Shown here: one piece after another, positions 2,248 to 17,486 of the stretch
Numbering within the stretch: the first letter of the stretch is position 1
Layout: every line of letters begins with the position of its first letter
DNA from: an uncultured delta proteobacterium
Lineage (GTDB): Bacteria > Desulfobacterota > Binatia > JACPRU01
DNA length: 64,000 nucleotides
Assembly (NCBI GenBank): GCA_963711395.1
Contig: CAVQEA010000014.1
Coordinates: 15,269-79,268, forward strand
Direction of reading: 5' to 3'
Program-made: the position numbers and the translations under genes
The notes under the pieces: generated by a model
Database searches by the model: none
The model's input: only the letters and a program-made list of their open reading frames with translations
Told to the model about the DNA's origin: nothing

Positions 2248-4658
2248 TCAATAGAAGACCTTCTCGGCTCGCAGGCGGGCGATCTCCTCAGCCGTCATGC
2301 CGAGAAGCTCGCTCATGACCGCGTCGGTGTGCTCGCCGATGAGCGGGGCAGGCGAGCGCACGCCGTTCGGCGAATTGGCGAACCGCCACGGAATGCCGGC
2401 GTGGGTGCGCGCGCCGACCTCCGCGTGCGGCAGGCAGCGCGAAGAAGCCGCGCTCGACGAGCTGCGGATCGTCGACGAGGTCGCGGCTCGACATCGACGG
2501 GAACGCCGCAACGCCGGCCGCCTGCAACATTCGTGTGATCTCCCAGCGGTCGCGCGTGCGAGTCCAGGCGCTGATCTCCGCGCCGAGCGCGTCTTCGTTC
2601 GCCTTGCGGTCCCGCAGCGTGGCGAATCGCGGGTCGGCGCCGAGCTCCGGCCGGCCCATGGCGCGCGCCAGCGAATGCCACTCTGCGTCGTCGGCGCAGG
2701 CGATCGTCACCCACGCATCCTCGCCAGCCGCCGGGAAGCAGTCGCACGGCGCCATCCACGGATCGCGATTGCCGATGCCGGTCAGGCGCGCGCCCGGTCA
2801 TCGAGTACTCCATCCATCCCTCGGCGACCAAGGCGGCGGTCGCTTCCCAGAGCGCGACGTCGATGTGCTGCCCTCGCCCGGTGCTGCGGCGCGCCACCAG
2901 CGCGGCGAGAACCCCGGCCGCCGCCGTGAGCCCGCCCGTCGGGTCGCCGTACGAGATGCCGAGCTCCTTCGGTCCCCCTTCGGAGTATCCGCTGAGCGAA
3001 GCGAGCCCGGAGAGCGGAACGATCGCGGGGCCGTAGCCCATGTAGCTCGCCTGCGGGCCTGTATGGCCGTACCCCGAGATCGACGCCATGATGATGTCCG
3101 GCTTGATCTCCTTGAGTCGCTCGTAGCCGAGGCCGAGCCGCTCCATCACCCCGGTCGCGAAGTTCTCGACCACCACGTCACAACGAGCGATGAGCCGCCG
3201 CGCCACCTCGATCGCCTCGGGCCTGGCGAGGTTCAGCAGCACGCTCTTCTTCCCCTGGTTCCACTGGTTGAAGTACCCGGAGCAGTTGAGGGTGTGCTCC
3301 ATGCCGACCGGCAGGATCGGCAACCGGCGGGCGGCATCGGAGCGCCCCTGCGACTCGATTCGAATGACTTCGGCGCCGAGATGGGCGAGCTGCATGGCAC
3401 AGAAAGGGCCGGCCCATACCCAGCTGAAATCGGCGACGCGAATGCCATCGAGGGGCAGCCTCTCGCGCGCTCGCGGGCCTTGCACGCCCGCCGCGGGCGC
3501 AGCCGCGGGCAGCTTCGAGAAGATCTCGGCGTCGTGCTCGCCGAGACGCGGGGCGGGTCGGCGCACGCGCCACCACGGCTCGTGCAAGCGGTAGGGCGGG
3601 CCGAGGTGGCGAAGCGTGCCGGCGACGGGATGCGCGACGTCGACGAAGAAATCGCGGGCGCGAAGCTGGTCCTGCTTCGCGAGGTCGGCCATCGTCAGGA
3701 CCGGCGCGAAGCAAACTCGCTGCTTCTGCCCAGCGCGGAAGAGGTCATCGACCTTCCATTCCCGAGTCCACTCGCTGATGAAGGGCTTCATCACGTCCGC
3801 GTTGTCGGCGCGTCCCACTAGCCCTTCGAAGATCTCCCAGCTCGCCCACTCCGGATTACCCATCAACTCGATCAGCCGCTTCCATTGATCTTCCTCGACG
3901 ATCACGAAGAAGATGAGGCCGTCCGCGCACTCGAACATTCCCCAAGGGAACAGCATGCGCTGGCCGAGACGCGACGAGACCTTCTCGCAGTACGTGTAGT
4001 AGACGAGGTTCTGCTCGATGAAGGATGCCACGTGCGCCTGCACCGATAGGTCGACGTGCTCGCCGCGGCCGGTTTCCGTTGCGCGATAGCGCGCGCCGAG
4101 CAGCGCCACCATCGCGCTCATGCCGGCGTGCAGGGAGCACTGATGCCCGAACGCCTTGAGCGGAGGCAGGTCGGGTCGATCCGAAGCGCCCGGGCTGACC
4201 CACGCCCAGCCGCCCGCGTGCGCCGCCGTGATCTCCTCCGCGCGATAGTCGCGGTGCGGGCCCGTCAGGCCGAACGGGGTGATCGAGCCGACGACGAGGC
4301 GGGGGTTGATCGCGGAGAGCGATTCGAAGTCGAGCCCTCGGGCCGCGATCGCCGCCGGAGGATGGTCGTGAACGAGGATGTCGGCCCATGCGACCAGATC
4401 GTGAAAGCGTCGCCGGTCGCCCGCCGCGCGCGGGTCGAGCACGACGCTTCGCTTGTTGGTGTTGAGATAGAGGAAGAGGCCGCCCTTGTCGGGATGCGGG
4501 ACACCCTCGGGGAACGGCCCGCGGCGTCGGGTGCGATCTCCGCCCGGCTCCTCGATCTTGATGGCGTCGGCGCCGAGGTCGGCCATCAGCTTCGCGGCGT
4601 AAGCGGCCGATACCCGCTCGCCGAGCTCGAGCACGCGCAAGCCTTCCAATCCCTGCAT
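2248..4658 (-). pseudogene. tandem two-domain family III CoA-transferase (CaiB/BaiF), frame broken twice near the 3' end (or assembly indels)
   Basis: Likely start is MQGLEGLRVLELGERVSAAYAAKLMADLGADAIKIEEP at 4658. A second CoA-transferase N-terminus (LDGIRVADFSWVWAGPFCAMQLAHLGAEVIRIE) lies mid-protein. Real sequence continues in ORFs 2288..2755 (MAPCDCFPAAGEDAWVTIAC...GRPELGADPRFAT) and 2248..2511 (LPHAEVG...LIGEHTDAVMSELLGMTAEEIARLRAEKVFY). Frameshifts are at ~2780 and ~2440. Confidence 0.8.
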
Positions 4659-6069: not shown

Positions 6070-9000
6070 CTACTCCGCGGCGGTGTAGCCGGGCCCTTCC
6101 ACGCTCGCCATCAGACGCAGCAGCTTCTCGCGGTTGAGCGGCTTCACGAAATGCTCGTTGAAGCCCGACTCGAGGGCGCGGCGACGGTCGAGGGGCTGGC
6201 CGTAGCCGGTCAGCGCGACCAGGTAGACGGCGTCGGTCGAATCCGCCGCGCGGATCTCGCGCGCCACGTCGTAGCCGTCGAGCCCCGGCAGACCGATGTC
6301 GACGAGGGCGATCTCCGGCGGATCGGCCAGCGCGAGCTCGACGGCCTCGTCGCCGTTGCGCGCCACCGCGACCCGGTGTCCCGAGGCCTCGAGCAACAAC
6401 CGAAGGGATTCCCGCGAATCGGAGTGGTCCTCGGCGATCAGCACCCGGCGCGGCGTGACGCGCGCGGCTTCGGGCACGCTCTCGGTCGCCGCGGCTTCGC
6501 TGACGGGTTTGGCGGGAATGCGAACCCGGAACTCGCTTCCCTGCCCGGTCCCCGCGCTCTCCGCCTCGACCGATCCGCCGTGCATCTCGGCGAGGCGGCG
6601 CACCAGCGTGAGACCGATGCCGAGGCCGCCCCGCGGCCGATCGAGCGATTGCTTGCCCTGCACGAATAGATCGAAGATGCGCGGCAACAGCTCGGGCTCG
6701 ATGCCCTGCCCGTTGTCGCGCACGCGCAGTTGTGCGTCCTCGCCGACTCGCTCGACGGCGATCTCTATCTCGCCGCCCTCGGGCGTGTACTTGATGGCGT
6801 TTTCCACGAGGTTGGTGACGATCTGCTCGAGGCGTACGGGATCACCGTCGACGAATACCGGCTCTCCCTGGAAGTGCACGAAGTGGCGCGAAGCCTTGCC
6901 GGCGGCGCGTAACGACTCGAGGGTCTGACTGACGAGCTCTCTCAGGTCGGCGACCCGCGTGCGCAGCCTGACCTTTCCGGAGATCAGCCTGGTGACGTCG
7001 AGCAGGTCGTCGACGAGTTGCGCCAGGGTGTCCGTCTGACGCGCGATGATCGAGCAGAGCATGGCCCCGGCGCCGTCGCCGCTGCGCGCTTGCGACATCT
7101 CGAGCGCCTCGACGCTGTTGCGGATCGCGCCGATCGGGTTACGCAGCTCGTGCCCGAGCATTGCGAGGAACTCGTCCTTCGCGCGGCTCGCCGCCTCGGC
7201 CGCCGCCCGCGCGCGTCGTTCGGATTCGAAGAGCTCGGCGTTCTCGAGCGCCACCGCCGCGTGGGCGGCGATGCCGGAGACGATGCGCTCTTCGCGCTTG
7301 GTGAAGGCACCCGGCTCGGCATGCGAGAGCGCGATGCCGCCGAGGATGCGGCCGCCGCGCGACACCACCGGCACCGCGAGGTAGCTCGCCACCGCCGTCC
7401 CGCCGAACTGACCCTCGAGGCCCGCGGGCCCGCCCGTGGCGCGAACGTCGTCGATGCGCAGCGGGCCGTCGCTCGAGAAGAGCCGGGTCGGGAACCGCGT
7501 CGGCCGCGGCGCGTCGAGCCCGAGGGCGTCGCGCGAGGCCGATTTCGAAGTGTAGCTCTTGTACCCCTCTCCGTCGCGCCCGTGGAAGAAGAACGTGCCC
7601 ATCTGCGCGTCGGCGAGCTTGGTCGCCGCGTCGGTGAGCTCCTGGATCAGCCGGTCGACGTCGAGCATACCGGAGAAGGTCGGCGAAAGGCGGTTGACGG
7701 TCTCGAGCGCGGAGCTCTTCTCGCGATGGCGTTCGTCGGAACGGCGGCGATCGACGAACTGGCCGATCTGATTCCCGATCGACGCGAGAAGCTTGCCGAG
7801 CGCCTCATCGGGCGGACGCACGTCGCGGGACCAGAGCTCGACGACGCCGAGGAATTCGTCGCGGACGCGGATCGGGAAGCCAAGCGCGCCGCGCAGGCCG
7901 TCGCGCTCCGCCTCGGCGCCGCGGGCGAAGGCTGCTTCCTTCGTGACGTCGTCGATCCATGCCGTCGCGCCGCTCCCCCACACGCGCCCGGGAAGCTCCT
8001 CGCCTCTCGAGAACGCGCGGCCCCGGGTCGCTGCCGCGAACGTCGTGCCGAGGTCGGGCGACCCCTGCCAAACGTCCATCGCGCGTAACACGCCGAGATC
8101 GCGGTCGAGCGTCCATGCGGCGCCGAAATCCCAGTCGAGCTTCGTGCCGAGCGCGCTCAACAACCGCGGCAGCGCCGCGTGCAGCGACTGCGAGTCGCCG
8201 AGCACCCGCGCGACCTCGTTTTGCGCGGCGAGGCGGCGCTCGGTCTCTTTGCGCTCGGTGACATCGAGCATGACGCCGCGGTGCCAGCGGCCGGCGCCGT
8301 CCCCGTCGTCCGCATAGAGGCGCGCGCGGAGCCAGCGCACCGCGCCGTCGGCTTTGACGGCACGGAACTCGAACTCGCAGTCGCGGCCTTGATCCGCCGC
8401 GGCCAGCAACTCGACGGCGGCGCGCTCGCGATCACGCGGATGGACGATCTTCGTCCAGAAGTCCCCGTCGGCGAGCCAGTGGTCCGGCGACTCTCCGCGC
8501 GTATCATCGGCCGCGGGGCTCTCGAACTTCAGTCGGCCACTGTCGGGCTCCGCCTCCCAGACGACCGCCTCCAGGTCGCGCAGCAACTGCCGATAGTGCG
8601 CTCGCGACCGCTCGGCCTCGGAGCGGACGGCGGTCTCCCGCAGCAGTTGGCCGTGCATCTCCTCGGTCGCGCTGAGCGCGCGCTCGGCATGACGCAGGCG
8701 AGCCGACCCGATCCAGGCGACCCCCGCGAGCACGAGCGCGGCAAGCGTCACCAGCATGGAGATCGCGCCGGTCGAATCCATCCACCCGTCCCGCTGCCCG
8801 ATCACCGCGATCAATCCGGCGAGCGCCGGCCCGGCGACCGTGAGTGGCAATAGCTGGCGCATGAGCGCGCTGGTGGGCGCCTCCCGGGCGAGCAGCGAGA
8901 GCGGCCCTGCGTCGGGCCGGATCGACAGAAGCGCGGCCGCCGCGAGACCGAAGAGGCAGATCACGGTGAGCTCGATCGGTGGCCGCGGCCCGACGGAGCC

Positions 9001-9591
9001 GCTCGCGGCATAGAGCACCTGGAGAGCGATCTCCAGCACCACGAACAGCGCGCCGATGGCGAAGAAATCGGAGAGCCGCCGCCCCGGCCAGCTTTGCACG
9101 TCGATCACCGCGGCGGCGGTGCCGAGCAACACGAGCTGCGCCGCGGTTCGCACGCTCGTGCCGTGGCCGGCATCGAGAAGCACCTGCTCGACGATGGTCA
9201 GCAGGCCGACGAGCGCCACGACGACGCCGAGCGCTTTGCCGATTCGTCGCTGCCCGGCATCGTCCCGCGATACCAGGATGAGCGACGCGGCGAGCAGTGA
9301 CAGCGACGCGGCGACCCTCGGTCCGAGCAGAGCGATCTCGGGCAGGAACGTCAGACCGAGCAAATGCTCGACGACCGATAGCGCGCCGGCCGCGAGCAGC
9401 AAGCCAGCGGTGCCGCGGACGAAGGCCTCCGCCATCTTCGAGCGCATCGTGGGAGATTCCACGATCGAGGCGGGAGCGTTGCTGATCAGAAGCACCGGCG
9501 GCGTGTCTTTCGTAGCACGTTTGACGGTCTTCCGAATAGTGCCGCCGACACTTTTCGCACCGCAGCGCGCGCTCTTTGAGCCTGTCCGCAC
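6070..9591 (-). CDS. hybrid sensor histidine kinase (multi-TM N-terminus, PAS, 2x GAF, HisKA, HATPase_c, receiver)
   Basis: H-box is FLAMLGHELRNPIGAI. N/G boxes are NLVENAIKYTP and DNGQGI...GGLGIGLTLV. C-terminal receiver is RVLIAEDHSDSRE...VDIGLPGLDGY. Hydrophobic N-terminal ~300 aa. The true start may be the Met at 9447 (MRSKMAEAF). Confidence 0.9.
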   Translation of the reverse strand: MRTGSKSARCGAKSVGGTIRKTVKRATKDTPPVLLISNAPASIVESPTMRSKMAEAFVRGTAGLLLAAGALSVVEHLLGLTFLPEIALLGPRVAASLSLLAASLILVSRDDAGQRRIGKALGVVVALVGLLTIVEQVLLDAGHGTSVRTAAQLVLLGTAAAVIDVQSWPGRRLSDFFAIGALFVVLEIALQVLYAASGSVGPRPPIELTVICLFGLAAAALLSIRPDAGPLSLLAREAPTSALMRQLLPLTVAGPALAGLIAVIGQRDGWMDSTGAISMLVTLAALVLAGVAWIGSARLRHAERALSATEEMHGQLLRETAVRSEAERSRAHYRQLLRDLEAVVWEAEPDSGRLKFESPAADDTRGESPDHWLADGDFWTKIVHPRDRERAAVELLAAADQGRDCEFEFRAVKADGAVRWLRARLYADDGDGAGRWHRGVMLDVTERKETERRLAAQNEVARVLGDSQSLHAALPRLLSALGTKLDWDFGAAWTLDRDLGVLRAMDVWQGSPDLGTTFAAATRGRAFSRGEELPGRVWGSGATAWIDDVTKEAAFARGAEAERDGLRGALGFPIRVRDEFLGVVELWSRDVRPPDEALGKLLASIGNQIGQFVDRRRSDERHREKSSALETVNRLSPTFSGMLDVDRLIQELTDAATKLADAQMGTFFFHGRDGEGYKSYTSKSASRDALGLDAPRPTRFPTRLFSSDGPLRIDDVRATGGPAGLEGQFGGTAVASYLAVPVVSRGGRILGGIALSHAEPGAFTKREERIVSGIAAHAAVALENAELFESERRARAAAEAASRAKDEFLAMLGHELRNPIGAIRNSVEALEMSQARSGDGAGAMLCSIIARQTDTLAQLVDDLLDVTRLISGKVRLRTRVADLRELVSQTLESLRAAGKASRHFVHFQGEPVFVDGDPVRLEQIVTNLVENAIKYTPEGGEIEIAVERVGEDAQLRVRDNGQGIEPELLPRIFDLFVQGKQSLDRPRGGLGIGLTLVRRLAEMHGGSVEAESAGTGQGSEFRVRIPAKPVSEAAATESVPEAARVTPRRVLIAEDHSDSRESLRLLLEASGHRVAVARNGDEAVELALADPPEIALVDIGLPGLDGYDVAREIRAADSTDAVYLVALTGYGQPLDRRRALESGFNEHFVKPLNREKLLRLMASVEGPGYTAAE

Positions 9592-11439: not shown

Positions 11440-12153
11440 ATGAAGAGAGCGAGTGACACCGATACATCGGCACTGCAAGTGACAGACGCCGGGCAGACCG
11501 GCGGCGAAAGCGAAAGGGCGGACATCATGGCAGCAGATTCCAAATCGGCACCAAAAACAACCGAAGGATCCAACGGGCCGCAGGCCCTTCCCGTTCTCGA
11601 TCTGGGAAGTGGCGATGCCCGGGGCGTGGACAAGATTCGCGACCTCCTGTTCGGGAACCAGATGCAGGACTACGATCGCCGGTTCTCGATGCTCGCGGAC
11701 GGCTTCCAACAGAAGCTGCGCGACATGGAATCCGAGGCCGCTCGAAGCCTGAGTAGCTTGGAGGTCAACCTCAAGAAGCAGCTCGAATCGATCGCGGGTC
11801 AGGTTCGGGAGGAGAAGGATCTGCGAACCGACGCGGACAAAGAGCTCGCGCACAAACTGCTCGAGTCGAGCCAGGCGCTGGAGAAGCGCATGGGACAGCT
11901 GTCCGACCAACTCGCTCGCCTGGAGCGGGACATGAGCGATCGGGTCAGCCACGACGTCCAGGGCTTGCGTGAAGAGATCAAGCGCCGCAATGACGACGCG
12001 CGTGCCACCGTCGATCGGATGTTCGCCGAGCTTCGCGAGGTGAAAACGGACCGGACCCTGCTTGCCGGCTTGTTCGTCGAAGTCGCGCGATGTCTGAACC
12101 AGGAGCTGCCAGCCCAGTTCGCGAACAAGGGCGGAGGCGGCGAGCGGAGCTGA
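11440..12153 (+). CDS. coiled-coil protein, first gene of the GTPase/cyclase operon
   Basis: 237 aa. The central ~150 aa are heptad-like and charged (KLRDMESEAARSLSSLEVNLKKQLESIAGQVREEKDLRTDADKELAHKLLESSQALEKRMGQLSDQLARLERDM). 26-nt gap to the next gene. Confidence 0.6.
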   Translation: MKRASDTDTSALQVTDAGQTGGESERADIMAADSKSAPKTTEGSNGPQALPVLDLGSGDARGVDKIRDLLFGNQMQDYDRRFSMLADGFQQKLRDMESEAARSLSSLEVNLKKQLESIAGQVREEKDLRTDADKELAHKLLESSQALEKRMGQLSDQLARLERDMSDRVSHDVQGLREEIKRRNDDARATVDRMFAELREVKTDRTLLAGLFVEVARCLNQELPAQFANKGGGGERS

Positions 12154-12179: not shown

Positions 12180-14021
12180 ATGTCGGATTCCCCGCCGTCT
12201 CGCAGGACGGATTCGGAAGTCTACGGGCAGACGCCGAATGGTGAGCGGCTCGCCAACCTGCTGATCGGAATCGCCCGGTACGTCGATCCCGCGACCGCTC
12301 CGAGCATCCCCGCCCTGAGCGGTGATCCGAGCCTCGACGCGGTCCGCCACATCCTGCTCGACCGGGAGCTCGCGGTTCTCGCTCGGCTTCGCGGGACTCT
12401 CGACGATCCCGAGCGCCTGGCCGCGGCCATCAGTGACGTGCTGTCGATGGCCGTCCAGCGAGCCGCGGTGCGCGACGGGCGGTTGGGCGAAGTGCTCACC
12501 CCGGCGGTCGAGCGCGCCGCGCAATGCTCGATCAAGAAGGACCCGCGGATTTTCATAAACATCTTTGCGCCGGTGATGGGCGCCAGCATTCGCAAGTCGA
12601 TCGCGGAGACCCTGGAGAACACGCTCCAATCCCTCAACCAAGCCCTCAAGCATAGCTTCTCCTGGCGAGGGCTCATGTGGCGGCTCGAGGCGCGTCGCGC
12701 CGGGACGACGTTCGCAGACGTGGTGCTCCGCCACACGCTCGTCTACCGCGTCGAGCACCTCTTCCTGATCCACAAGGAGACCGGCCTCCTGATCAGCCAC
12801 GTCGCGGCAGACGACGCCGCGAGCGAGGATCCGCAGCTCGTTTCGGGAATGCTCAGCGCCATCCAGGATTTCGTCCGGGACTCTTTCGGTCGCGCCGATG
12901 CCGCCGGCCTCGATTCCCTGCGCTTGGGCGATCAGGTCTTGTGGTGCGAGCAAGGCGCGCTCGCTTTTCTCGCCGCCGTCATTCGCGGCACGCCCCCCGA
13001 AACGCTCCACGGCACTCTCCGCGATGCGCTTGCGACCATCCACGACGAGTGGCGCGGTGCACTCGTGAACTTCGCCGGCGACGATGCCGAGTTCGGCGGC
13101 GTCGCCGAGCAACTGCGGCCGTGTCTGCAAGCGCAAGCGCGCGCCCCCGAAAAGCACTTGTCGCCGCTCCTGTGGGCGCTGCCCCTGCTGCTCCTCGTGC
13201 TCGGCGGCTACTGGCTGTACGAGCGGCACGAAGCTTGGGAGCGATTCGACCACTACGTCGCGCGGCTCGAAGCAGAGCCCGGGATCGTCGTCACCAGCGC
13301 CGGAAGGCGCGACGGCGTCTGGCAGGTGGCCGGCATGCGGGACCCGTTGGCGCCCGATCCGACGACGCTGCTGGGTGCGGGCGACTTGGCGCCGGCCGAC
13401 GTCGAGGGACATTGGCAGCCGTATCTCGCGCTCGACCCCGCCCTCGCGCTGAAAAGGTACCAGACCAGCCTTTCGCCGCCCCCCGGCGTGTCCCTCAAGC
13501 TCGACGGCGGCACTGTGCGCGCCGACGGGTCCGCGCCGCATCACTGGATCGAGCGAGCTCGTGCCCTCGTGCGCACCTTGCCGCCCGGATCCCCCGGGCT
13601 CGACCTGGCGAGCCTCGAGGATCCCGAGATGGCGGAGTACGAGCGCGTACGGGGCGCCGTCCAGTCCCACGTGATCTACTTCGATCACAACGTCCCGAAG
13701 CCGGCGGTCGGCCAGGACGCCGAGATGGACGCTCTGGCGAGCGACCTGCTCGAGCTCGAGCGGGTGGCGCGGGAGATGCGCGTCACCGCGCGCGTGACGA
13801 TCACCGGCCATGCCGATTCCACGGGCAAAGACACGCCGAACCTCGCCCTCAGCACGGGTCGGGCGGAGGTCGTGCGCTCCATGCTGAAGGCGCGTGGCGT
13901 CGATCCCGATCTGTTGGCGGTCAGGGGCGCCGGGCCGCTCGAGCCCTTGAAGCTGGAGACGACCGACGAAGATCGCTCCATCAACCGACGCGTATCGTTC
14001 ACCGTCGGCATCGGAGAGTGA
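12180..14021 (+). CDS. bitopic envelope protein: cytoplasmic helical + Roadblock/LC7-like region, one TM, periplasmic region, C-terminal OmpA-like peptidoglycan-binding domain
   Basis: 613 aa from MSDSPPS. Residues ~186-300 (TLVYRVEHLFLIHKETGLLISHVAADDAASEDPQLVSGMLSAIQDFVRDSFG...VLWCEQGALAFLAAVIRG) look Roadblock/MglB-like by eye. TM is LSPLLWALPLLLLVLGGYWLY (~329-347). OmpA-like C-terminus is VIYFDHN...ITGHADSTG...NLALSTGRAEVV...NRRVSF. Confidence 0.8.
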   Translation: MSDSPPSRRTDSEVYGQTPNGERLANLLIGIARYVDPATAPSIPALSGDPSLDAVRHILLDRELAVLARLRGTLDDPERLAAAISDVLSMAVQRAAVRDGRLGEVLTPAVERAAQCSIKKDPRIFINIFAPVMGASIRKSIAETLENTLQSLNQALKHSFSWRGLMWRLEARRAGTTFADVVLRHTLVYRVEHLFLIHKETGLLISHVAADDAASEDPQLVSGMLSAIQDFVRDSFGRADAAGLDSLRLGDQVLWCEQGALAFLAAVIRGTPPETLHGTLRDALATIHDEWRGALVNFAGDDAEFGGVAEQLRPCLQAQARAPEKHLSPLLWALPLLLLVLGGYWLYERHEAWERFDHYVARLEAEPGIVVTSAGRRDGVWQVAGMRDPLAPDPTTLLGAGDLAPADVEGHWQPYLALDPALALKRYQTSLSPPPGVSLKLDGGTVRADGSAPHHWIERARALVRTLPPGSPGLDLASLEDPEMAEYERVRGAVQSHVIYFDHNVPKPAVGQDAEMDALASDLLELERVAREMRVTARVTITGHADSTGKDTPNLALSTGRAEVVRSMLKARGVDPDLLAVRGAGPLEPLKLETTDEDRSINRRVSFTVGIGE

Positions 14022-14533
14022 TGCAGCAAAAGAAGATCTGCATGCTGGGCGCGTTCGCCGTGGGTAAGACCAGCCTCGTCCGCCGTTACGTCGACAGTAT
14101 CTTCTCGGACACCTACCTCTCCACGGTCGGGGTCAAGATCGACAAGCACGTCGTCACGGTCGGCGACGAGACACTGAACCTGATTCTCTGGGACATCGCC
14201 GGCGAGGATGATGTCTCTTCGGTTCGGATGAGCTACCTCCGCGGCGCGAGCGGCTATTTCCTGGTGGTGGACGGGACACGCGCGGTGACGCTCGACGTCG
14301 CGCGCTCCATCCAGGAGCGCGCCAAAGGCGAGATCGGCAACGTGCCGTTCATCGCCCTCGTCAACAAGCTCGACGTGCGCAACGAGTGGACCGTCGCACA
14401 GGAAAGCCTGGCCGAGCTCGAAAACGCCGGGTGGTCGGTGGCGCTGACCAGCGCCCGGACCGGCGAAGGCGTCGAAGAGGCGTTCCACACCCTCGCCGAG
14501 CGCATGCTCCTCTCAAACACGACGACGCGATGA
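14021..14533 (+). CDS. small Ras/Rab-like GTPase (prokaryotic Ras-superfamily, Rup-type)
   Basis: 170 aa. G1 GAFAVGKTS. Switch I YLSTVGV (Rab-like). G3 WDIAGED. G4 NKLD. G5 TSARTGEGV. The start overlaps the upstream stop (TGATG at 14019-14023). Confidence 0.9.
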   Translation: MQQKKICMLGAFAVGKTSLVRRYVDSIFSDTYLSTVGVKIDKHVVTVGDETLNLILWDIAGEDDVSSVRMSYLRGASGYFLVVDGTRAVTLDVARSIQERAKGEIGNVPFIALVNKLDVRNEWTVAQESLAELENAGWSVALTSARTGEGVEEAFHTLAERMLLSNTTTR

Positions 14534-15606
14534 ACCCGCCCGGCGCGTCGTGGCTCATGAAAGCCTGGCCCGCCGCAGTGACCGACTATCTGAGTCGGCT
14601 GCTGCAAGAGCAATTTCACCCGGCCTTTCTGCAAGTGGATCCGGACGGCAACCTGGCGGCGGCGGGCGGCGCGCTGGAGCTGTACGGACTCTCGGGGTTC
14701 CAGACGGGCGTGCCGATCGTCGACTACCTGCCGCTCCTGATGGGCCTCTTGCCGTTGCAAGCGTCCAGTGATCCGTTCGTAATCCCCTGGGTCAACATCG
14801 ACGGCGGCGGTTATATGGATGTCCACCTCCTGCCCGGCGACGGCTGCGACTTCGTCATCTGCGTCGAGGCCCTCGTCGAACGGGAGGAGCGCGTGGCGTG
14901 GCAGCAGAAAGGAAACGAGCTCGCCCTGACCAAGCAGAAGCAGGCGCAGCTGCTCGAATCTCACGTGGGAAAGTACGTTGCCGGAGAGCTGCTGCGCGGT
15001 GGTCTGGTGCCAGACGAGGAAGGCGAGCGGCGCGAGGCCTCGCTCCTCTTCTGTGACATTCGCAGTTTTACCACCTTCGCCGAGCGGAACCCGCCGCAGG
15101 TCGTCTTTCAGACGCTGAATCAGCTTCTCCAGGCAATGGTTCAGCCCATCCTCGACCACGGTGGTTGGCTCGACAAGATGGCCGGGGACGCCGTCTTCGG
15201 CGCGTTCGGCCTCATTCCCTATCAGACGCCCGGCGGAGACGAGCGCAAGACCCCGGCGCCGGTTCGCGCGCTGCTCGCTGCGCAAGCCATCATGAGCAAG
15301 CTGCGCGATTGGAACGACGAGAGGCGTCGCGGCGGAGCCGAACCACTGGGCGCCGGTATCGGCATCACCACGGGAACAGTCGCAGTCGGAGTACTCGGTA
15401 CGCGTGAGCGGCGGCAGTTCACGATCATCGGCCACCACGTCAACCTCGCGGCGCGGCTGCAAGGACAGGCCTTGGCCGGCGAAATCTTCGTCGATGCGTC
15501 CACACTTGCGACGCTCGGCGAGCTCGCGCAGGGTTTTACGCCGCGACCGCTCAGTCTAAAGGGCCTGCAGGACGTCGAAGCCTACGTACTCGCCACGGAT
15601 TGGTAG
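14530..15606 (+). CDS. class III adenylate/guanylate cyclase with PAS-like N-terminal domain of unknown function
   Basis: 358 aa. The catalytic domain has ASLLFCDIRSFTTFAE (metal Asp), LDKMAGDAVFGAFG (Lys + second Asp), GIGITTGTVAVGVLG and FTIIGHHVNLAARLQ (Asn/Arg). ATGA overlap with the GTPase stop at 14530-14533. Confidence 0.9.
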   Translation: MNPPGASWLMKAWPAAVTDYLSRLLQEQFHPAFLQVDPDGNLAAAGGALELYGLSGFQTGVPIVDYLPLLMGLLPLQASSDPFVIPWVNIDGGGYMDVHLLPGDGCDFVICVEALVEREERVAWQQKGNELALTKQKQAQLLESHVGKYVAGELLRGGLVPDEEGERREASLLFCDIRSFTTFAERNPPQVVFQTLNQLLQAMVQPILDHGGWLDKMAGDAVFGAFGLIPYQTPGGDERKTPAPVRALLAAQAIMSKLRDWNDERRRGGAEPLGAGIGITTGTVAVGVLGTRERRQFTIIGHHVNLAARLQGQALAGEIFVDASTLATLGELAQGFTPRPLSLKGLQDVEAYVLATDW

Positions 15607-15723
15607 CGCAGGGCGCAGCCACCCAGGTTCGACCCCGCATTGAGAAATCGCAGACCCAGGACTTATGACGGGCGTGACGCCGCAAGCCGTCCGCCTGCTT
15701 TTCGAGAACGAGGGAGAGGCACA

Positions 15724-17486
15724 ATGAGACGAGTCATCGACGGAAGCCTTGCGCTCATCGCACTACTGGCAGTCACACCGGTCGCGGCGCAGCAGGTCAC
15801 GGGCGAGTTGGGTTCGCCCAGCGCCACGACCACGATCGACGGAAGACAAATTCCGCCTCCGCCGATGAAGTTTGGCGGCGTGATCAAGGAGAGCGCCACG
15901 GAGTCGAAGCAGTGGTGGCCGCCGCGCGTGGTGCCGCCGAAAGGCGCGCCCAACGTGCTACTCATCATGACCGATGACCAGGGCTATGGCGTGTCGGGCA
16001 CCTTTGGCGGGGTCATCTCGACGCCGGCGCTGGACCGCATGCCGGCTACGCGGCCTATACCGACCATGAGATCGGCCGGGTGATTCAGGCTGTCGAGGAC
16101 ATGGGCAAGCTCGACAACACGCTGGTCATCTACATCTGCGGCGACAATGGCACCAGCCCGGAAGGCACCCTGTATGGCGCCTTCAATCAGCTCACCGCCT
16201 ACAACGGCATTCTCGATGCCCCTGAAGCCCTGCAGTTGTTGCACTATGAAGACTGGGGCTCGGACAAGACCTACCCGCATATGGCGGTGGGATGGGCGTG
16301 GGCCTTTGATACGCCCTTCAAATGGACCAAGCAGGTGGCGTCGCATTTCGGCGGGACCCGGCAGGGCTTGGCCATTTCGTGGCCCGGCCACATCAAGGAC
16401 CTCGGCGCCGTTCGCTCCCAGTTCCATCATGTCATTGATGTCGTGCCGACGATCCTTGAAGCCACTGGCATCAAAGCGCCGGACATGGTCAACGGCATCC
16501 AGCAACGACCCATCGAAGGCGTGAGCATGGCCTACACGTTCGACGCGGCGAATGCGAAGGCACCGTCGAAGCGCGACACGCAGTATTTCGAGATGGCCGC
16601 CAATCGCGGGATTTATCACGACGGCTGGATGGCCAATACGACACCGTTCGCCCCGCCCTGGGACTTGGCAACGGGCAAGTTGCCCGATGTCGTCACCGGC
16701 TACAAATGGGAGCTCTACAACATCACCGAAGACTACTCGCAAAACGACGACCTCGCCGCCAAGAATCCTGAGAAGTTGAAGGAGATGCAGGCATTGTTCG
16801 CGACAGAGGCGGCGAAATACAACGTCTTCCCGTTGGATAACACCGCCTTCTCGCGCTTACTGACGCCGCGACCGAGCGCCACCGCGGGACACACAATGTT
16901 CACCTACACGGGTGAGAATGCCGGCATTCCCCTCGGCAATGCTCCGAGCATTCTGGACAGGGACTATACCATCACAGCCGACGTGACGATCCCCGAAGGC
17001 GGCGCGGAGGGCATGATCGTGACGCTCGGGGGCCGCTTCGGCGGCTACGCCCTCTTCCTGCAAAAAGGCAAGCCGGTCTTCGTCTACAACCTCCTCGATC
17101 TGGAGCGATTCCGCTGGGAGGGTGGCGTGGGAGGCATCATCGGCGAGGACTTCCTTGGCCGTGCGCTCCAGCCGGGAAAACACACGCTCGTGTTCGACTT
17201 CAAATACGACGGCCCCGGCCCCGGCAAGGGCGGCACGGGCGTGTTCACGGTGGATGGCAAGGAGTTGGCCCGCAAGACGCTCAAGCACACGATTCCGCTC
17301 ATGATGACCATTGACGAGACCTTCGACGTTGGGGTTGATACCCGCACGGGGGTCGACGACAGCTACAAGCTGCCGTTCCGCTTCACCGGGACGATCAACA
17401 AGCTGACCTTCAAGCTCGGGCCGGAGCAGTTGACGGCGACGGATCAGAAGGCCGCGGCTGAAGCAGTTGGCAAAGCCAACGAGTAG
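15724..17486 (+). pseudogene. arylsulfatase with internal deletion of the catalytic core
   Basis: N-terminus has a signal peptide and NVLLIMTDDQGYGVSGTFGGVISTPALDR. Reading then jumps, with a frame change at ~16040-16050, directly to GYAAYTDHEIGRVIQAVEDMGKLDNTLVIYICGDNGTS. The segment that normally carries the C/S-x-P-x-R formylglycine motif and most of the sulfatase fold is absent. Confidence 0.8.

What the first reader, a model, noticed from the sequence alone, without database searches (positions are those of the whole stretch)
12180..14021. Unusual domain architecture: cytoplasmic Roadblock/LC7-like module fused through one TM helix to a periplasmic OmpA-type peptidoglycan anchor
Residues ~186-300 show the alternating beta/alpha pattern and the SGMLSAIQDFVRDSF-type helix I associate with Roadblock/MglB-like domains (VYRVEHLFLIHKETGLLISHVAADD...PQLVSGMLSAIQDFVRDSFG...LWCEQGALAFLAAVIRG). 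A single TM helix (~329-347, nt ~13164-13220) follows. Next is a ~150-aa periplasmic region of unknown fold, then an OmpA-like domain (nt ~13662-14018; ITGHADSTG...NLALSTGRAEVV...NRRVSF). GTPase regulators of the Roadblock family are normally soluble. Tethering one to the cell wall would make GTPase regulation report on envelope or periplasmic state.
Basis: inference. Interest (0 to 1): 0.6.

Follow-up and report, generated by a model that had tools for sequence, protein, structure and literature searches.

The report
Cell-wall-anchored Roadblock partner of a Ras-like GTPase
This gene encodes an inner-membrane protein whose cytoplasmic half folds like the Roadblock/MglB regulators of small GTPases and whose periplasmic half binds the cell wall; it belongs to a widespread four-gene Ras-like GTPase signalling cassette outlined by genome comparison in 2014 and never tested experimentally, and the Roadblock fold is the new point.

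Summary
ORF 12180-14021 (613 aa) has no signal peptide. It has a cytoplasmic N-terminal half, one TM helix (aa 328-346), two small alpha/beta periplasmic modules and an OmpA-type peptidoglycan-binding domain (Pfam E 4e-12).

The Roadblock idea is supported by fold only. An AF2 model of aa 160-327 (pLDDT 91) hits only Roadblock/longin structures in the PDB: MglB, Ragulator, Mon1-Ccz1, TRAPP and Asgard Roadblock (E about 1e-4). All sequence and profile tests against PF03259 fail.

The architecture is not unusual. More than 1,500 homologues were found, in at least 589 species genomes. The gene sits in a translationally coupled cassette: coiled-coil protein, this protein, a Ras-like GTPase with Glu at the catalytic Gln position, and an output enzyme (here a class III cyclase). 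The cassette is intact in 78 of 80 related loci.

Wuichet & Sogaard-Andersen (2014) described this as the 'Group 1 Rup' neighbourhood. They left the cytoplasmic domain unassigned and stated that Rup GTPases are not predicted to pair with MglB homologues.

Most likely function (inferred): an envelope-spanning sensor whose Roadblock-like platform controls the Rup GTPase, which in turn drives the output enzyme. This is a new member of a known but untested kind. The fold assignment is a modest new insight.

The parts
11440..12153 (+). Gene 1 of the cassette: a cytoplasmic, coiled-coil-type protein (237 aa from the first ATG; the true start may be ATG 11527).
   Evidence: Only weak helical-repeat or coiled-coil-type Pfam hits. 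A homologue at 42-68% identity lies directly upstream of the focal gene in 80 of 80 loci. It matches the 'coiled-coil cytoplasmic protein' of the Group 1 Rup neighbourhood.
12180..14021 (+). Focal gene: a 613-aa bitopic inner-membrane protein (cytoplasmic helical region, Roadblock-like domain, TM helix, 2 BON-like modules, OmpA-like domain).
12237..12710 (+). aa ~20-177: conserved all-helical cytoplasmic region of unknown function, modelled with low confidence.
   Evidence: Helices 21-174 in the full-length model, pLDDT 41-70. Many invariant residues, such as I137, K139, Q150, N153, W167 and R168. No Pfam or NCBIfam hit.
12711..13067 (+). aa 178-296: Roadblock/longin-fold domain (alpha-beta-beta-alpha-beta-beta-beta-alpha). 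Helix alpha2 (aa 218-237, PQLVSGMLSAIQDFVRDSF) is the most conserved stretch of the protein.
   Evidence: Domain model with pLDDT 91.4 and pTM 0.83. Foldseek against the PDB: Mon1-Ccz1 1.2e-4, T. thermophilus MglB 1.7e-4 (24-26% identity over 124 columns), TRAPP Bet5, Asgard Roadblock3, Ragulator p14/MP1 and M. xanthus MglB 2e-3. Invariant columns are listed.
13161..13217 (+). aa 328-346: the single transmembrane helix.
   Evidence: Only hydrophobic window above 1.5. The model shows a long helix 329-365.
13275..13664 (+). aa 366-495: two small periplasmic alpha/beta modules (BON-like order). In homologues this ~130-aa unit is repeated 1 to about 5 times.
   Evidence: pLDDT about 90. Foldseek top hit is Rv0899/ArfA 2l26 (BON + OmpA-like), 269 columns. 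phmmer aligns aa 431-611 with 2l26. Repeat-number variation is seen in alignment A1. The Pfam BON model does not hit.
13671..14012 (+). aa 498-611: OmpA-like peptidoglycan-binding domain carrying the GHxDxxG...N..LS..RA motif (H544, D546, N554, R561).
   Evidence: PF00691 E 4.4e-12. NCBIfam hits to YiaD, YfiB, Pal and TssL. PDB sequence and fold hits to Pal, OmpA-C and YfiB. G543, G549, R561 and A562 are invariant; H544 and D546 are at least 90% conserved.
14021..14533 (+). Gene 3: 170-aa Ras-like (Rup Group 1 type) small GTPase. Its start overlaps the focal gene's stop (TGATG). Motifs: G1 GAFAVGKT, G3 DIAGE (Glu at the Ras Gln61 position), G4 NKLD, G5 SAR.
   Evidence: PF00071 E 6.9e-28. Overlap seen. 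G3 is D-x-A-G-E in 77 of 78 loci. It is the only strong Ras-family gene in the genome.
14530..15606 (+). Gene 4: the output enzyme (358 aa). Its start overlaps the GTPase stop (ATGA). It has an N-terminal ~165-aa family-specific domain (14530-15024) with invariant Q125-Q126, and a class III nucleotidyl cyclase domain (about 15031-15594).
   Evidence: PF00211 E 2e-17. Overlap seen. The N-terminal domain is shared by 70 of 75 called outputs, with Q125 and Q126 in 70 of 70. In other loci the catalytic domain is PP2C/SpoIIE instead.

Best explanation
The gene encodes the membrane component of a 'Group 1 Rup' small-GTPase signalling cassette. The protein spans the inner membrane once. Its periplasmic part (two BON-like modules and an OmpA-like domain) binds peptidoglycan. 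Its cytoplasmic part carries a conserved helical region and a Roadblock/longin-fold domain.

Proposed mechanism (inferred). The Roadblock-like domain probably acts as a dimer, possibly together with the upstream coiled-coil protein. It would be the membrane-fixed docking platform for the adjacent Ras-like GTPase and would set its nucleotide state or its membrane residence according to the state of the periplasmic, cell-wall-bound part. The platform could act as an exchange factor, as Ragulator, Mon1-Ccz1 and TRAPP do. It could also act as a GAP or GAP co-factor, as MglB does.

The GTP-bound GTPase would then bind the conserved N-terminal domain of the output enzyme, here a class III cyclase, and switch second-messenger synthesis. 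Because the GTPase has Glu at the catalytic Gln position, hydrolysis probably needs a residue supplied in trans. Candidates are the invariant Gln-Gln of the output's N-terminal domain, as proposed in 2014, or the Roadblock platform.

Shown here: the domain architecture, the fold, the operon structure, the conservation and the modular outputs.

Inferred: the topology, every protein-protein contact, the direction of regulation and the signal that is sensed.
For: Architecture: OmpA domain; one TM segment and no signal peptide; Roadblock/longin fold from a confident model, with only Roadblock/longin proteins among the top 50 PDB hits.

Genetic coupling: stop/start overlaps TGATG and ATGA link the focal gene to the GTPase and the GTPase to the cyclase.

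Conservation: coiled-coil gene in 80 of 80 loci; GTPase and output in 78 of 80, across Burkholderiales, Acidobacteriota, Rhizobiales, Gammaproteobacteria and Myxococcaceae. Two distant members keep the same order. Flanking genes are not conserved, so this is a self-contained module.

One-to-one pairing: the genome holds one copy of the domain and one strong Ras-family gene, and they are neighbours. It has no canonical PF03259 protein.

Output modularity: a constant N-terminal domain with invariant QQ, joined to either a cyclase or a PP2C domain. This is what an effector-docking module would look like.

GTPase: G3 is DxAGE in 77 of 78 loci.

Literature: the same four-gene neighbourhood and the in-trans Gln idea are in PMC4316618. 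From memory, Roadblock and longin domains serve generally as small-GTPase platforms (MglB, Ragulator, Mon1-Ccz1, TRAPP); these are the very structures hit.
Against: No sequence-level link to Roadblock exists. PF03259 does not hit aa 178-296. hhalign against a profile of 30 genuine Roadblock proteins gives probability 0.16%. hmmsearch and phmmer are negative. Homology with MglB is therefore unproven, and the fold could be convergent or serve another purpose.

No physical interaction was tested or modelled; no complex prediction was available. Topology is inferred, and the charge bias around the TM helix is weak. The 2014 analysis assigned the putative GAP role to the output protein rather than to this protein. 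The N-terminal helical region (aa 20-177) is modelled poorly and may carry the actual function.
Confidence: 0.62

Rival explanations
1. The protein is only an anchor or localisation scaffold. It fixes the cassette to one place in the envelope by binding peptidoglycan. The Roadblock-like domain mediates dimerisation or binds the coiled-coil protein. It does not contact the GTPase or change its nucleotide state. Regulation comes from the output protein's N-terminal domain (a GAP supplying Gln in trans) and from an unidentified exchange factor.
For: Roadblock domains are first of all dimerisation modules, as in dynein LC7 and Ragulator pairs, which are among the hits. The invariant QQ in the output's N-terminal domain and the 2014 proposal give a GAP candidate that does not involve this protein. 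The coiled-coil gene is as conserved as the GTPase (80 of 80 loci).
Against: The strongest conservation in the whole protein lies on helix alpha2 and the neighbouring strands of the Roadblock-like domain. That is more than a plain dimer interface would be expected to need. In every characterised case among the top hits (MglB, Ragulator, Mon1-Ccz1, TRAPP) the fold contacts a small GTPase directly (from memory).
Confidence: 0.2
2. The Roadblock-like fold is a ligand- or signal-sensing module unrelated to GTPase control, comparable to a small alpha/beta sensor domain. The resemblance to MglB would be convergent. The protein would sense a cytoplasmic cue, with the periplasmic OmpA part as a passive tether.
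For: All sequence and profile comparisons with genuine Roadblock proteins are negative. Foldseek E-values are moderate (about 1e-4) and TM-scores are 0.4-0.66.
Against: None of the top 50 structural hits is a PAS, GAF or other sensor fold; all are Roadblock/longin. The strict adjacency and translational coupling to a Ras-like GTPase would then be a coincidence. No ligand-binding motif was seen.
Confidence: 0.08
3. The cassette is an anti-phage defence system. The envelope-anchored protein would detect damage to the wall or membrane during infection, and the cyclase would make a nucleotide alarm signal, as in Pycsar or Zorya.
For: PADLOC models of ZorB (E 8e-7) and the Pycsar cyclase PycC (E 2.5e-22) hit the OmpA and cyclase domains.
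Against: These hits cover only the generic OmpA-like and class III cyclase domains. There is no ZorA/MotA-like partner and no cyclic-nucleotide-activated effector next to the cassette. In most related loci the output is a PP2C phosphatase, not a cyclase. The GTPase and the cytoplasmic domain have no PADLOC hit.
Confidence: 0.04

Closest known systems
Group 1 Rup GTPase gene neighbourhood (Wuichet & Sogaard-Andersen 2014, Genome Biol Evol, PMC4316618)
   Same: The same four components in the same roles. These are a coiled-coil cytoplasmic protein; a protein with a conserved unassigned domain, a TM helix and an OmpA domain; a Ras-like GTPase with canonical G motifs but no G3 glutamine; and an output protein whose N-terminal domain carries an invariant Gln. 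Mesorhizobium, named in the paper, is among the loci found here.
   Different: The output here is a class III nucleotidyl cyclase, and PP2C in many relatives. The paper lists GGDEF/EAL proteins and histidine kinases. [quoted passage not shown] Here that domain models as a Roadblock/MglB-like fold.
MglA/MglB polarity module (Thermus thermophilus, Myxococcus xanthus)
   Same: A Roadblock-fold protein encoded next to a small Ras-superfamily GTPase. The structural alignment to T. thermophilus MglB has E 1.7e-4 and 24-26% identity.
   Different: MglB is a small soluble homodimer and is recognised by PF03259. This domain is not recognised by the profile and is fused to a TM helix and a cell-wall anchor. 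The GTPase is Rup-type (DxxGE) and not MglA-type.
Actinobacterial conservons (CvnA-D; the mfp operon)
   Same: A membrane sensor, a Roadblock protein, an accessory protein and a small GTPase in one operon. The 2014 paper drew this analogy.
   Different: Conservons use a histidine-kinase-like CvnA, a separate soluble CvnB Roadblock protein, a DUF742 protein and an MglA-family GTPase. None of these families is present here.
Eukaryotic Ragulator-Rag, Mon1-Ccz1-Rab7 and TRAPP-Rab1 platforms
   Same: Membrane-tethered Roadblock/longin platforms that dock and regulate Ras-superfamily GTPases. They are among the best structural hits.
   Different: Those are multi-subunit complexes tethered by lipid anchors or by other proteins on organelle membranes. 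Here a single bacterial polypeptide carries its own TM helix and a peptidoglycan anchor.
Rv0899/ArfA, and the Pal/YiaD/YfiB/MotB-C class of OmpA-like peptidoglycan anchors
   Same: The periplasmic part matches them in sequence and in fold. Rv0899 likewise combines a membrane anchor, a BON domain and an OmpA-like domain.
   Different: None of these has a large cytoplasmic signalling domain or a GTPase partner.

Membership tests
Roadblock/LC7 (Pfam PF03259; MglB-like) | Significant match to the family's sequence profile | tested here: not met
   Pfam scan of aa 1-327 and of aa 181-307 at E up to 10 gave no hit on aa 178-296. hhalign against a profile of 30 PF03259-positive proteins gave probability 0.16%. 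hmmsearch gave no significant match (best 4.7 bits, E 0.037 against only 30 sequences) and phmmer against PDB sequences found nothing at E up to 10.
Roadblock/LC7 (Pfam PF03259; MglB-like) | alpha-beta-beta-alpha-beta-beta-beta(-alpha) sandwich fold superposable on known Roadblock structures | tested here: met
   AF2 domain model with pLDDT 91.4 has element order H-E-E-H-E-E-E-H. The Foldseek top 50 are all Roadblock/longin, including MglB, LAMTOR, Asgard Roadblock3 and dynein LC7. TM-score is up to 0.66 and rmsd 3.2-3.7 A over about 104 columns.
Roadblock/LC7 (Pfam PF03259; MglB-like) | Forms dimers through edge strands and binds or regulates a small GTPase | not testable with these tools
   No complex prediction or experiment was available. 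Only gene adjacency supports it.
OmpA-like peptidoglycan-binding domain (PF00691) | Profile match above the curated cut-off | tested here: met
   46.6 bits against a cut-off of 27.2, aa 525-603.
OmpA-like peptidoglycan-binding domain (PF00691) | Conserved Asp and Arg of the peptidoglycan (DAP)-binding motif (role of these residues recalled from Pal/OmpA structures) | tested here: met
   The motif GHADSTG...NLALSTGRAE is present. R561 is invariant and D546 at least 90% conserved in 35 homologues. The binding role itself was not assayed.
Group 1 Rup system (PMC4316618) | Ras-like GTPase with canonical G1-G5 motifs but no G3 glutamine | tested here: met
   GAFAVGKT, DIAGE, NKLD, SAR. Glu at the Gln position in 77 of 78 loci.
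Group 1 Rup system (PMC4316618) | Neighbouring protein with a conserved unassigned domain, an inner-membrane helix and a C-terminal OmpA domain | tested here: met
   OmpA is present in 7 of 9 distant family members sampled.
Group 1 Rup system (PMC4316618) | Neighbouring coiled-coil cytoplasmic protein | tested here: met
   A homologue lies upstream in 80 of 80 loci. Only coiled-coil or helical-repeat-type weak hits, and no TM segment. The coiled coil itself was not modelled.
Group 1 Rup system (PMC4316618) | Output signalling protein with a conserved N-terminal domain that carries an invariant Gln | tested here: met
   Q125 and Q126 in 70 of 70 outputs. The output type differs from the paper: cyclase or PP2C rather than GGDEF/EAL or histidine kinase.
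MglA/MglB system | MglA-type GTPase (G3 without the conserved Asp, intrinsic Arg finger) paired with a PF03259 MglB | tested here: not met
   G3 keeps Asp58 (DIAGE) and the P-loop has no Arg. No PF03259 gene anywhere in the genome.
Actinobacterial conservon | CvnA histidine-kinase-like sensor and CvnC (DUF742) in the operon | tested here: not met
   No such domains in the four genes.
BON domain (PF04972) | Profile match, or an alpha-beta-beta-alpha-beta fold | tested here: inconclusive
   No Pfam hit at E up to 10 and no PDB sequence hit for aa 352-500 alone. The element order and the alignment with Rv0899 (BON + OmpA-like) suggest a BON-like fold.
Zorya / Pycsar defence systems | ZorA (MotA-like) partner, or a cyclic-nucleotide-activated effector next to the cyclase | tested here: not met
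   Only generic OmpA and cyclase-domain hits. No such neighbours.

The most novel reading that the evidence does not exclude
The unassigned cytoplasmic domain of the Group 1 Rup membrane protein is a true, highly diverged Roadblock/MglB-type regulator (GEF or GAP platform) of the Rup GTPase. According to the 2014 phylogeny, Group 1 Rup GTPases are the closest bacterial relatives of eukaryotic Rab/Ras/Rho/Ran. The partnership between a membrane-tethered Roadblock/longin platform and a Ras-like GTPase, as in Ragulator-Rag, Mon1-Ccz1-Rab7 and TRAPP-Rab1, would then already exist in bacteria on the Rup side. That would contradict the published view that Rup GTPases lack MglB-like partners. In bacteria the platform would be wired across the inner membrane to the cell wall. 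The result would be a G-protein-style transmembrane pathway that reads envelope or peptidoglycan state and feeds into cAMP/cGMP, PP2C, c-di-GMP or histidine-kinase outputs.
Probability: 0.5. Interest if true: 0.65.

Novelty: new member of a known kind. Interest (0 to 1): 0.42.

Why it matters
Group 1 Rup GTPases are the bacterial proteins most like eukaryotic Rab/Ras/Rho/Ran, and no member has been studied experimentally in the library searched. No regulator has been assigned to them. Here the conserved membrane partner models as a Roadblock/longin fold, the fold that regulates MglA in bacteria and Rag and Rab GTPases in eukaryotes. That gives a concrete candidate regulator and a testable pathway: cell wall, TM protein, GTPase, output enzyme. 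It also points to a large family (about 4,400 clusters at 50% identity) that has no Pfam or NCBIfam model for its cytoplasmic domain. The architecture and gene neighbourhood themselves are not new.

Tried and rejected
- Sequence-level Roadblock tests all failed: Pfam at E up to 10 on the whole cytoplasmic part and on aa 181-307 (the only Robl_LC7 line, E 0.19, lies at aa 58-93 and is noise); hhalign of the trimmed 123-sequence domain alignment against 30 genuine PF03259 proteins from the same phylum (relaxed settings); hmmsearch; phmmer of the domain against PDB sequences.
- Foldseek with the full-length model only returned OmpA-like domains, so a separate domain model was needed.
- An anti-phage defence reading (PADLOC) was rejected as generic domain matches.
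- I looked for a fifth conserved gene and for conserved flanks and found none. A histidine kinase follows the output gene in two distant loci only.
- I looked for paralogues in the window's own genome and found none.
- Four literature searches for later work on Group 1 Rup or on Roadblock-OmpA fusions found nothing beyond the 2014 paper. Subscription-only papers are not covered.
- Taxon naming through cluster members gave no names.
- A second hmmsearch direction (Roadblock profile against the domain sequences) failed on a script error and was not repeated.
Full report
**What is in the sequence**

The frame holding the finding is open from 12090, but the gene starts at ATG 12180 and ends at TGA 14019-14021. 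Twelve homologues of 611-613 aa begin with the same MSDSPP... residues. The product is 613 aa.

Pfam finds one domain, OmpA (PF00691), at aa 525-603, with E 4.4e-12 and 46.6 bits against a cut-off of 27.2. NCBIfam adds only OmpA-type anchors such as YiaD, YfiB, Pal, TssL and MotB. Nothing in Pfam or NCBIfam matches aa 1-500.

A hydropathy scan finds one hydrophobic segment, aa 327-347 (SPLLWALPLLLLVLGGYWL). There is no N-terminal signal peptide.

**Structure**

A full-length AF2 model built on 35 homologues has mean pLDDT 72.5. It shows:
- a helical region, aa 20-175, at low confidence;
- an alpha-beta-beta-alpha-beta-beta-beta-alpha unit, aa 178-296;
- a long helix, aa 329-365, that contains the TM segment;
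- two small alpha/beta modules, aa 366-495, at pLDDT about 90;
- an OmpA-like domain, aa 498-611.

Foldseek with this model returns only the periplasmic part. The top hit is Rv0899/ArfA (BON + OmpA-like), followed by Pal, OmpA-C, YfiB and MotB-C. phmmer against PDB sequences agrees.

To test the Roadblock claim I modelled aa 160-327 alone, on an alignment of 123 sequences drawn from a search of 1.84 billion cluster representatives. That model is confident, with pLDDT 91.4 and pTM 0.83. All 50 listed Foldseek PDB hits belong to the Roadblock/longin superfamily:
- Mon1-Ccz1, E 1.2e-4;
- Thermus thermophilus MglB, E 1.7e-4, 24-26% identity over about 124 columns;
- TRAPP Bet5/Trs23;
- Asgard Roadblock3;
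- Ragulator p14/MP1/LAMTOR;
- sigma-adaptins;
- M. xanthus MglB;
- dynein LC7.

TM-scores normalised to the target reach 0.66, and rmsd is 3.2-3.7 A over about 104 columns. A helix precedes the first strand, which is the Roadblock order and not the longin order.

**Limits of the Roadblock assignment**

No sequence method sees the relationship.
- PF03259 does not hit aa 178-296 even at E up to 10.
- I built a profile from 30 genuine PF03259 proteins taken from genomes of the same phylum. hhalign against it gives probability 0.16%.
- hmmsearch and phmmer against PDB sequences are negative.

The claim that stands is 'Roadblock/longin fold'. 'Member of the Roadblock/LC7 family' does not stand.

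**Context**

The gene is the second of four translationally coupled genes.
- Gene 1, 11440-12153: a coiled-coil-type protein.
- Gene 2: the focal gene.
- Gene 3, 14021-14533: a 170-aa Ras-like GTPase (PF00071, E 6.9e-28). Its start overlaps the focal stop (TGATG).
- Gene 4, 14530-15606: a 358-aa protein with a class III cyclase domain (PF00211). Its start overlaps the GTPase stop (ATGA).

A scan of one genome per species found at least 589 species that encode a relative. In the 80 best loci the coiled-coil gene is present upstream in all 80. The GTPase and output genes are present downstream in 78. Of the two exceptions, one locus runs off its contig, and in the other (L061) the cassette is cut right after the stop codon by an inverted-repeat element.

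These loci come from Variovorax and other Burkholderiales, Acidobacteriota, Vicinamibacterales, Mesorhizobium and other Rhizobiales, Gammaproteobacteria and a Myxococcaceae MAG. Two much more distant members (792 and 1,116 aa, no OmpA Pfam hit) still sit in the order small protein, X, Ras GTPase, cyclase, histidine kinase.

Genes flanking the window's cassette are not conserved in any related locus. The four genes therefore form a self-contained module. The window's genome holds one copy of the domain, and its only strong Ras-family gene is the neighbour. It has no canonical PF03259 gene.

**The partners**

The GTPase has canonical G1, G4 and G5 motifs and G3 = DIAGE. Glu replaces the catalytic Gln in 77 of 78 loci.

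The output proteins share an N-terminal domain of about 165 aa with invariant Q125-Q126 (70 of 70). Their catalytic domain is exchangeable: class III cyclase in 28 loci and PP2C/SpoIIE in at least 41. A constant docking domain joined to variable outputs is the pattern expected of an effector of the GTPase.

**Already known**

Wuichet & Sogaard-Andersen (Genome Biol Evol 2014, PMC4316618) defined 'Group 1 Rup' GTPases as Ras-like, lacking the G3 glutamine, and the closest prokaryotic relatives of Rab/Ran/Ras/Rho. They described exactly this neighbourhood:
- a coiled-coil cytoplasmic protein;
- an output protein (GGDEF/EAL or histidine kinase) whose N-terminal region has an invariant glutamine, proposed to act in trans.

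[quoted passage not shown] Four further full-text searches found no later work on this system or on a Roadblock-OmpA fusion. The library lacks most subscription journals, so this absence is not proof.

The architecture is therefore known and common.
- the fold assignment of the unassigned domain;
- cyclase and PP2C as further output types;
- the BON-like nature and variable copy number (1 to about 5 units of about 130 aa) of the periplasmic spacer;
- the size of the family, at 4,411 50%-identity clusters with E up to 1e-3 for the cytoplasmic part alone.

**Mechanism (inference)**

The C-terminal domain keeps the peptidoglycan-binding motif. R561 is invariant and D546 at least 90% conserved. 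It must therefore lie in the periplasm, which places the N-terminal 327 residues in the cytoplasm beside the GTPase.

Among the top structural hits, those I recall as characterised platforms (MglB, Ragulator, Mon1-Ccz1, TRAPP) use this fold to dock a small GTPase and to act as GAP, GEF or scaffold. The most conserved part of the protein is helix alpha2 of this domain (PQLVSxMLxAIQDFVxDSF, mostly invariant).

I therefore consider it most likely (about 0.6) that the domain is the membrane-fixed platform that controls the Rup GTPase in response to the state of the wall-bound periplasmic part. GTP-bound Rup would then engage the output's N-terminal domain. The missing catalytic Gln could come from that domain's invariant QQ, as proposed in 2014, or from the platform.

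Whether the platform acts as GEF or GAP, what is sensed (wall attachment, periplasm width, mechanical load or osmotic state), and what the coiled-coil protein does are all open.

**Rivals**
- Pure anchor or scaffold without GTPase contact (about 0.2).
- A convergent fold used for sensing something else (about 0.08).
- A defence system (about 0.04). PADLOC gives only generic OmpA and cyclase-domain matches.

**Verdict**

This is a new member of a known, computationally described but experimentally unexplored system, with one new structural insight. Interest is moderate.

Noticed in passing
Alignment A1; e.g. Mesorhizobium loci L059-L080: Homologues differ mainly in how many copies they carry of a ~130-aa periplasmic unit (two BON-like modules; consensus YVxRLRAxPGIVVT...GLRDPLAxDP...WxPYQAL...VLKRL...). 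The window protein has one copy. Proteins of 750 aa have two, and Mesorhizobium proteins of 885-1020 aa have three to five. This looks like a variable-length spacer between the inner membrane and the cell wall.
   Followed up: partly
L001-L080, gene downstream of the GTPase: The output gene keeps a constant N-terminal domain (invariant Q125-Q126, also YGL, GxLP, DxH). Its catalytic domain swaps between class III cyclase (28 loci) and PP2C/SpoIIE phosphatase (at least 41 loci). Neither output type is listed in the 2014 description.
   Followed up: partly
L061:3147-3400: In this Vicinamibacterales MAG the cassette stops right after the OmpA-fusion gene. The stop codon is followed by a pair of ~35-nt inverted repeats (cccagagctcactggtgttgaggatgcgaatccc ... 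gggattcgcatcctcaacacaagtgagctctggg) about 170 nt apart. The GTPase and output genes are missing. This may be a small mobile element or a rearrangement.
   Followed up: no
window 12180-13160 (aa 1-327): The cytoplasmic part has 4,411 clusters at 50% identity with E up to 1e-3 (1,510 with E up to 1e-30) but no model in Pfam-A (2025 copy) or NCBIfam 20.0. It is a large family without a domain definition.
   Followed up: partly
window 15640-17486: A sulfatase-like gene appears split into two overlapping frames (15640-16083 and 16080-17486). It may be a frameshift or an internal deletion. Another first-stage note flags the same thing.
   Followed up: no
window 6070-9591 (-): A large (1,173-aa) hybrid sensor histidine kinase with N-terminal membrane segments and a C-terminal receiver lies upstream on the opposite strand. 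It is not part of the conserved cassette; only generic kinase-domain matches were found in 13 loci.
   Followed up: no
whole genome G000 and 80 genomes of its phylum: 39 of 81 genomes sampled from the same phylum carry a canonical PF03259 Roadblock gene, but the window's own genome has none. The only Roadblock-fold candidate here is the fusion protein. The genome is only 78.8% complete.
   Followed up: partly
L111 and L113: In two distant cassettes, whose membrane proteins lack an OmpA Pfam hit, a histidine kinase or hybrid kinase directly follows the cyclase-type output gene. This hints at a further downstream relay in some lineages.
   Followed up: no
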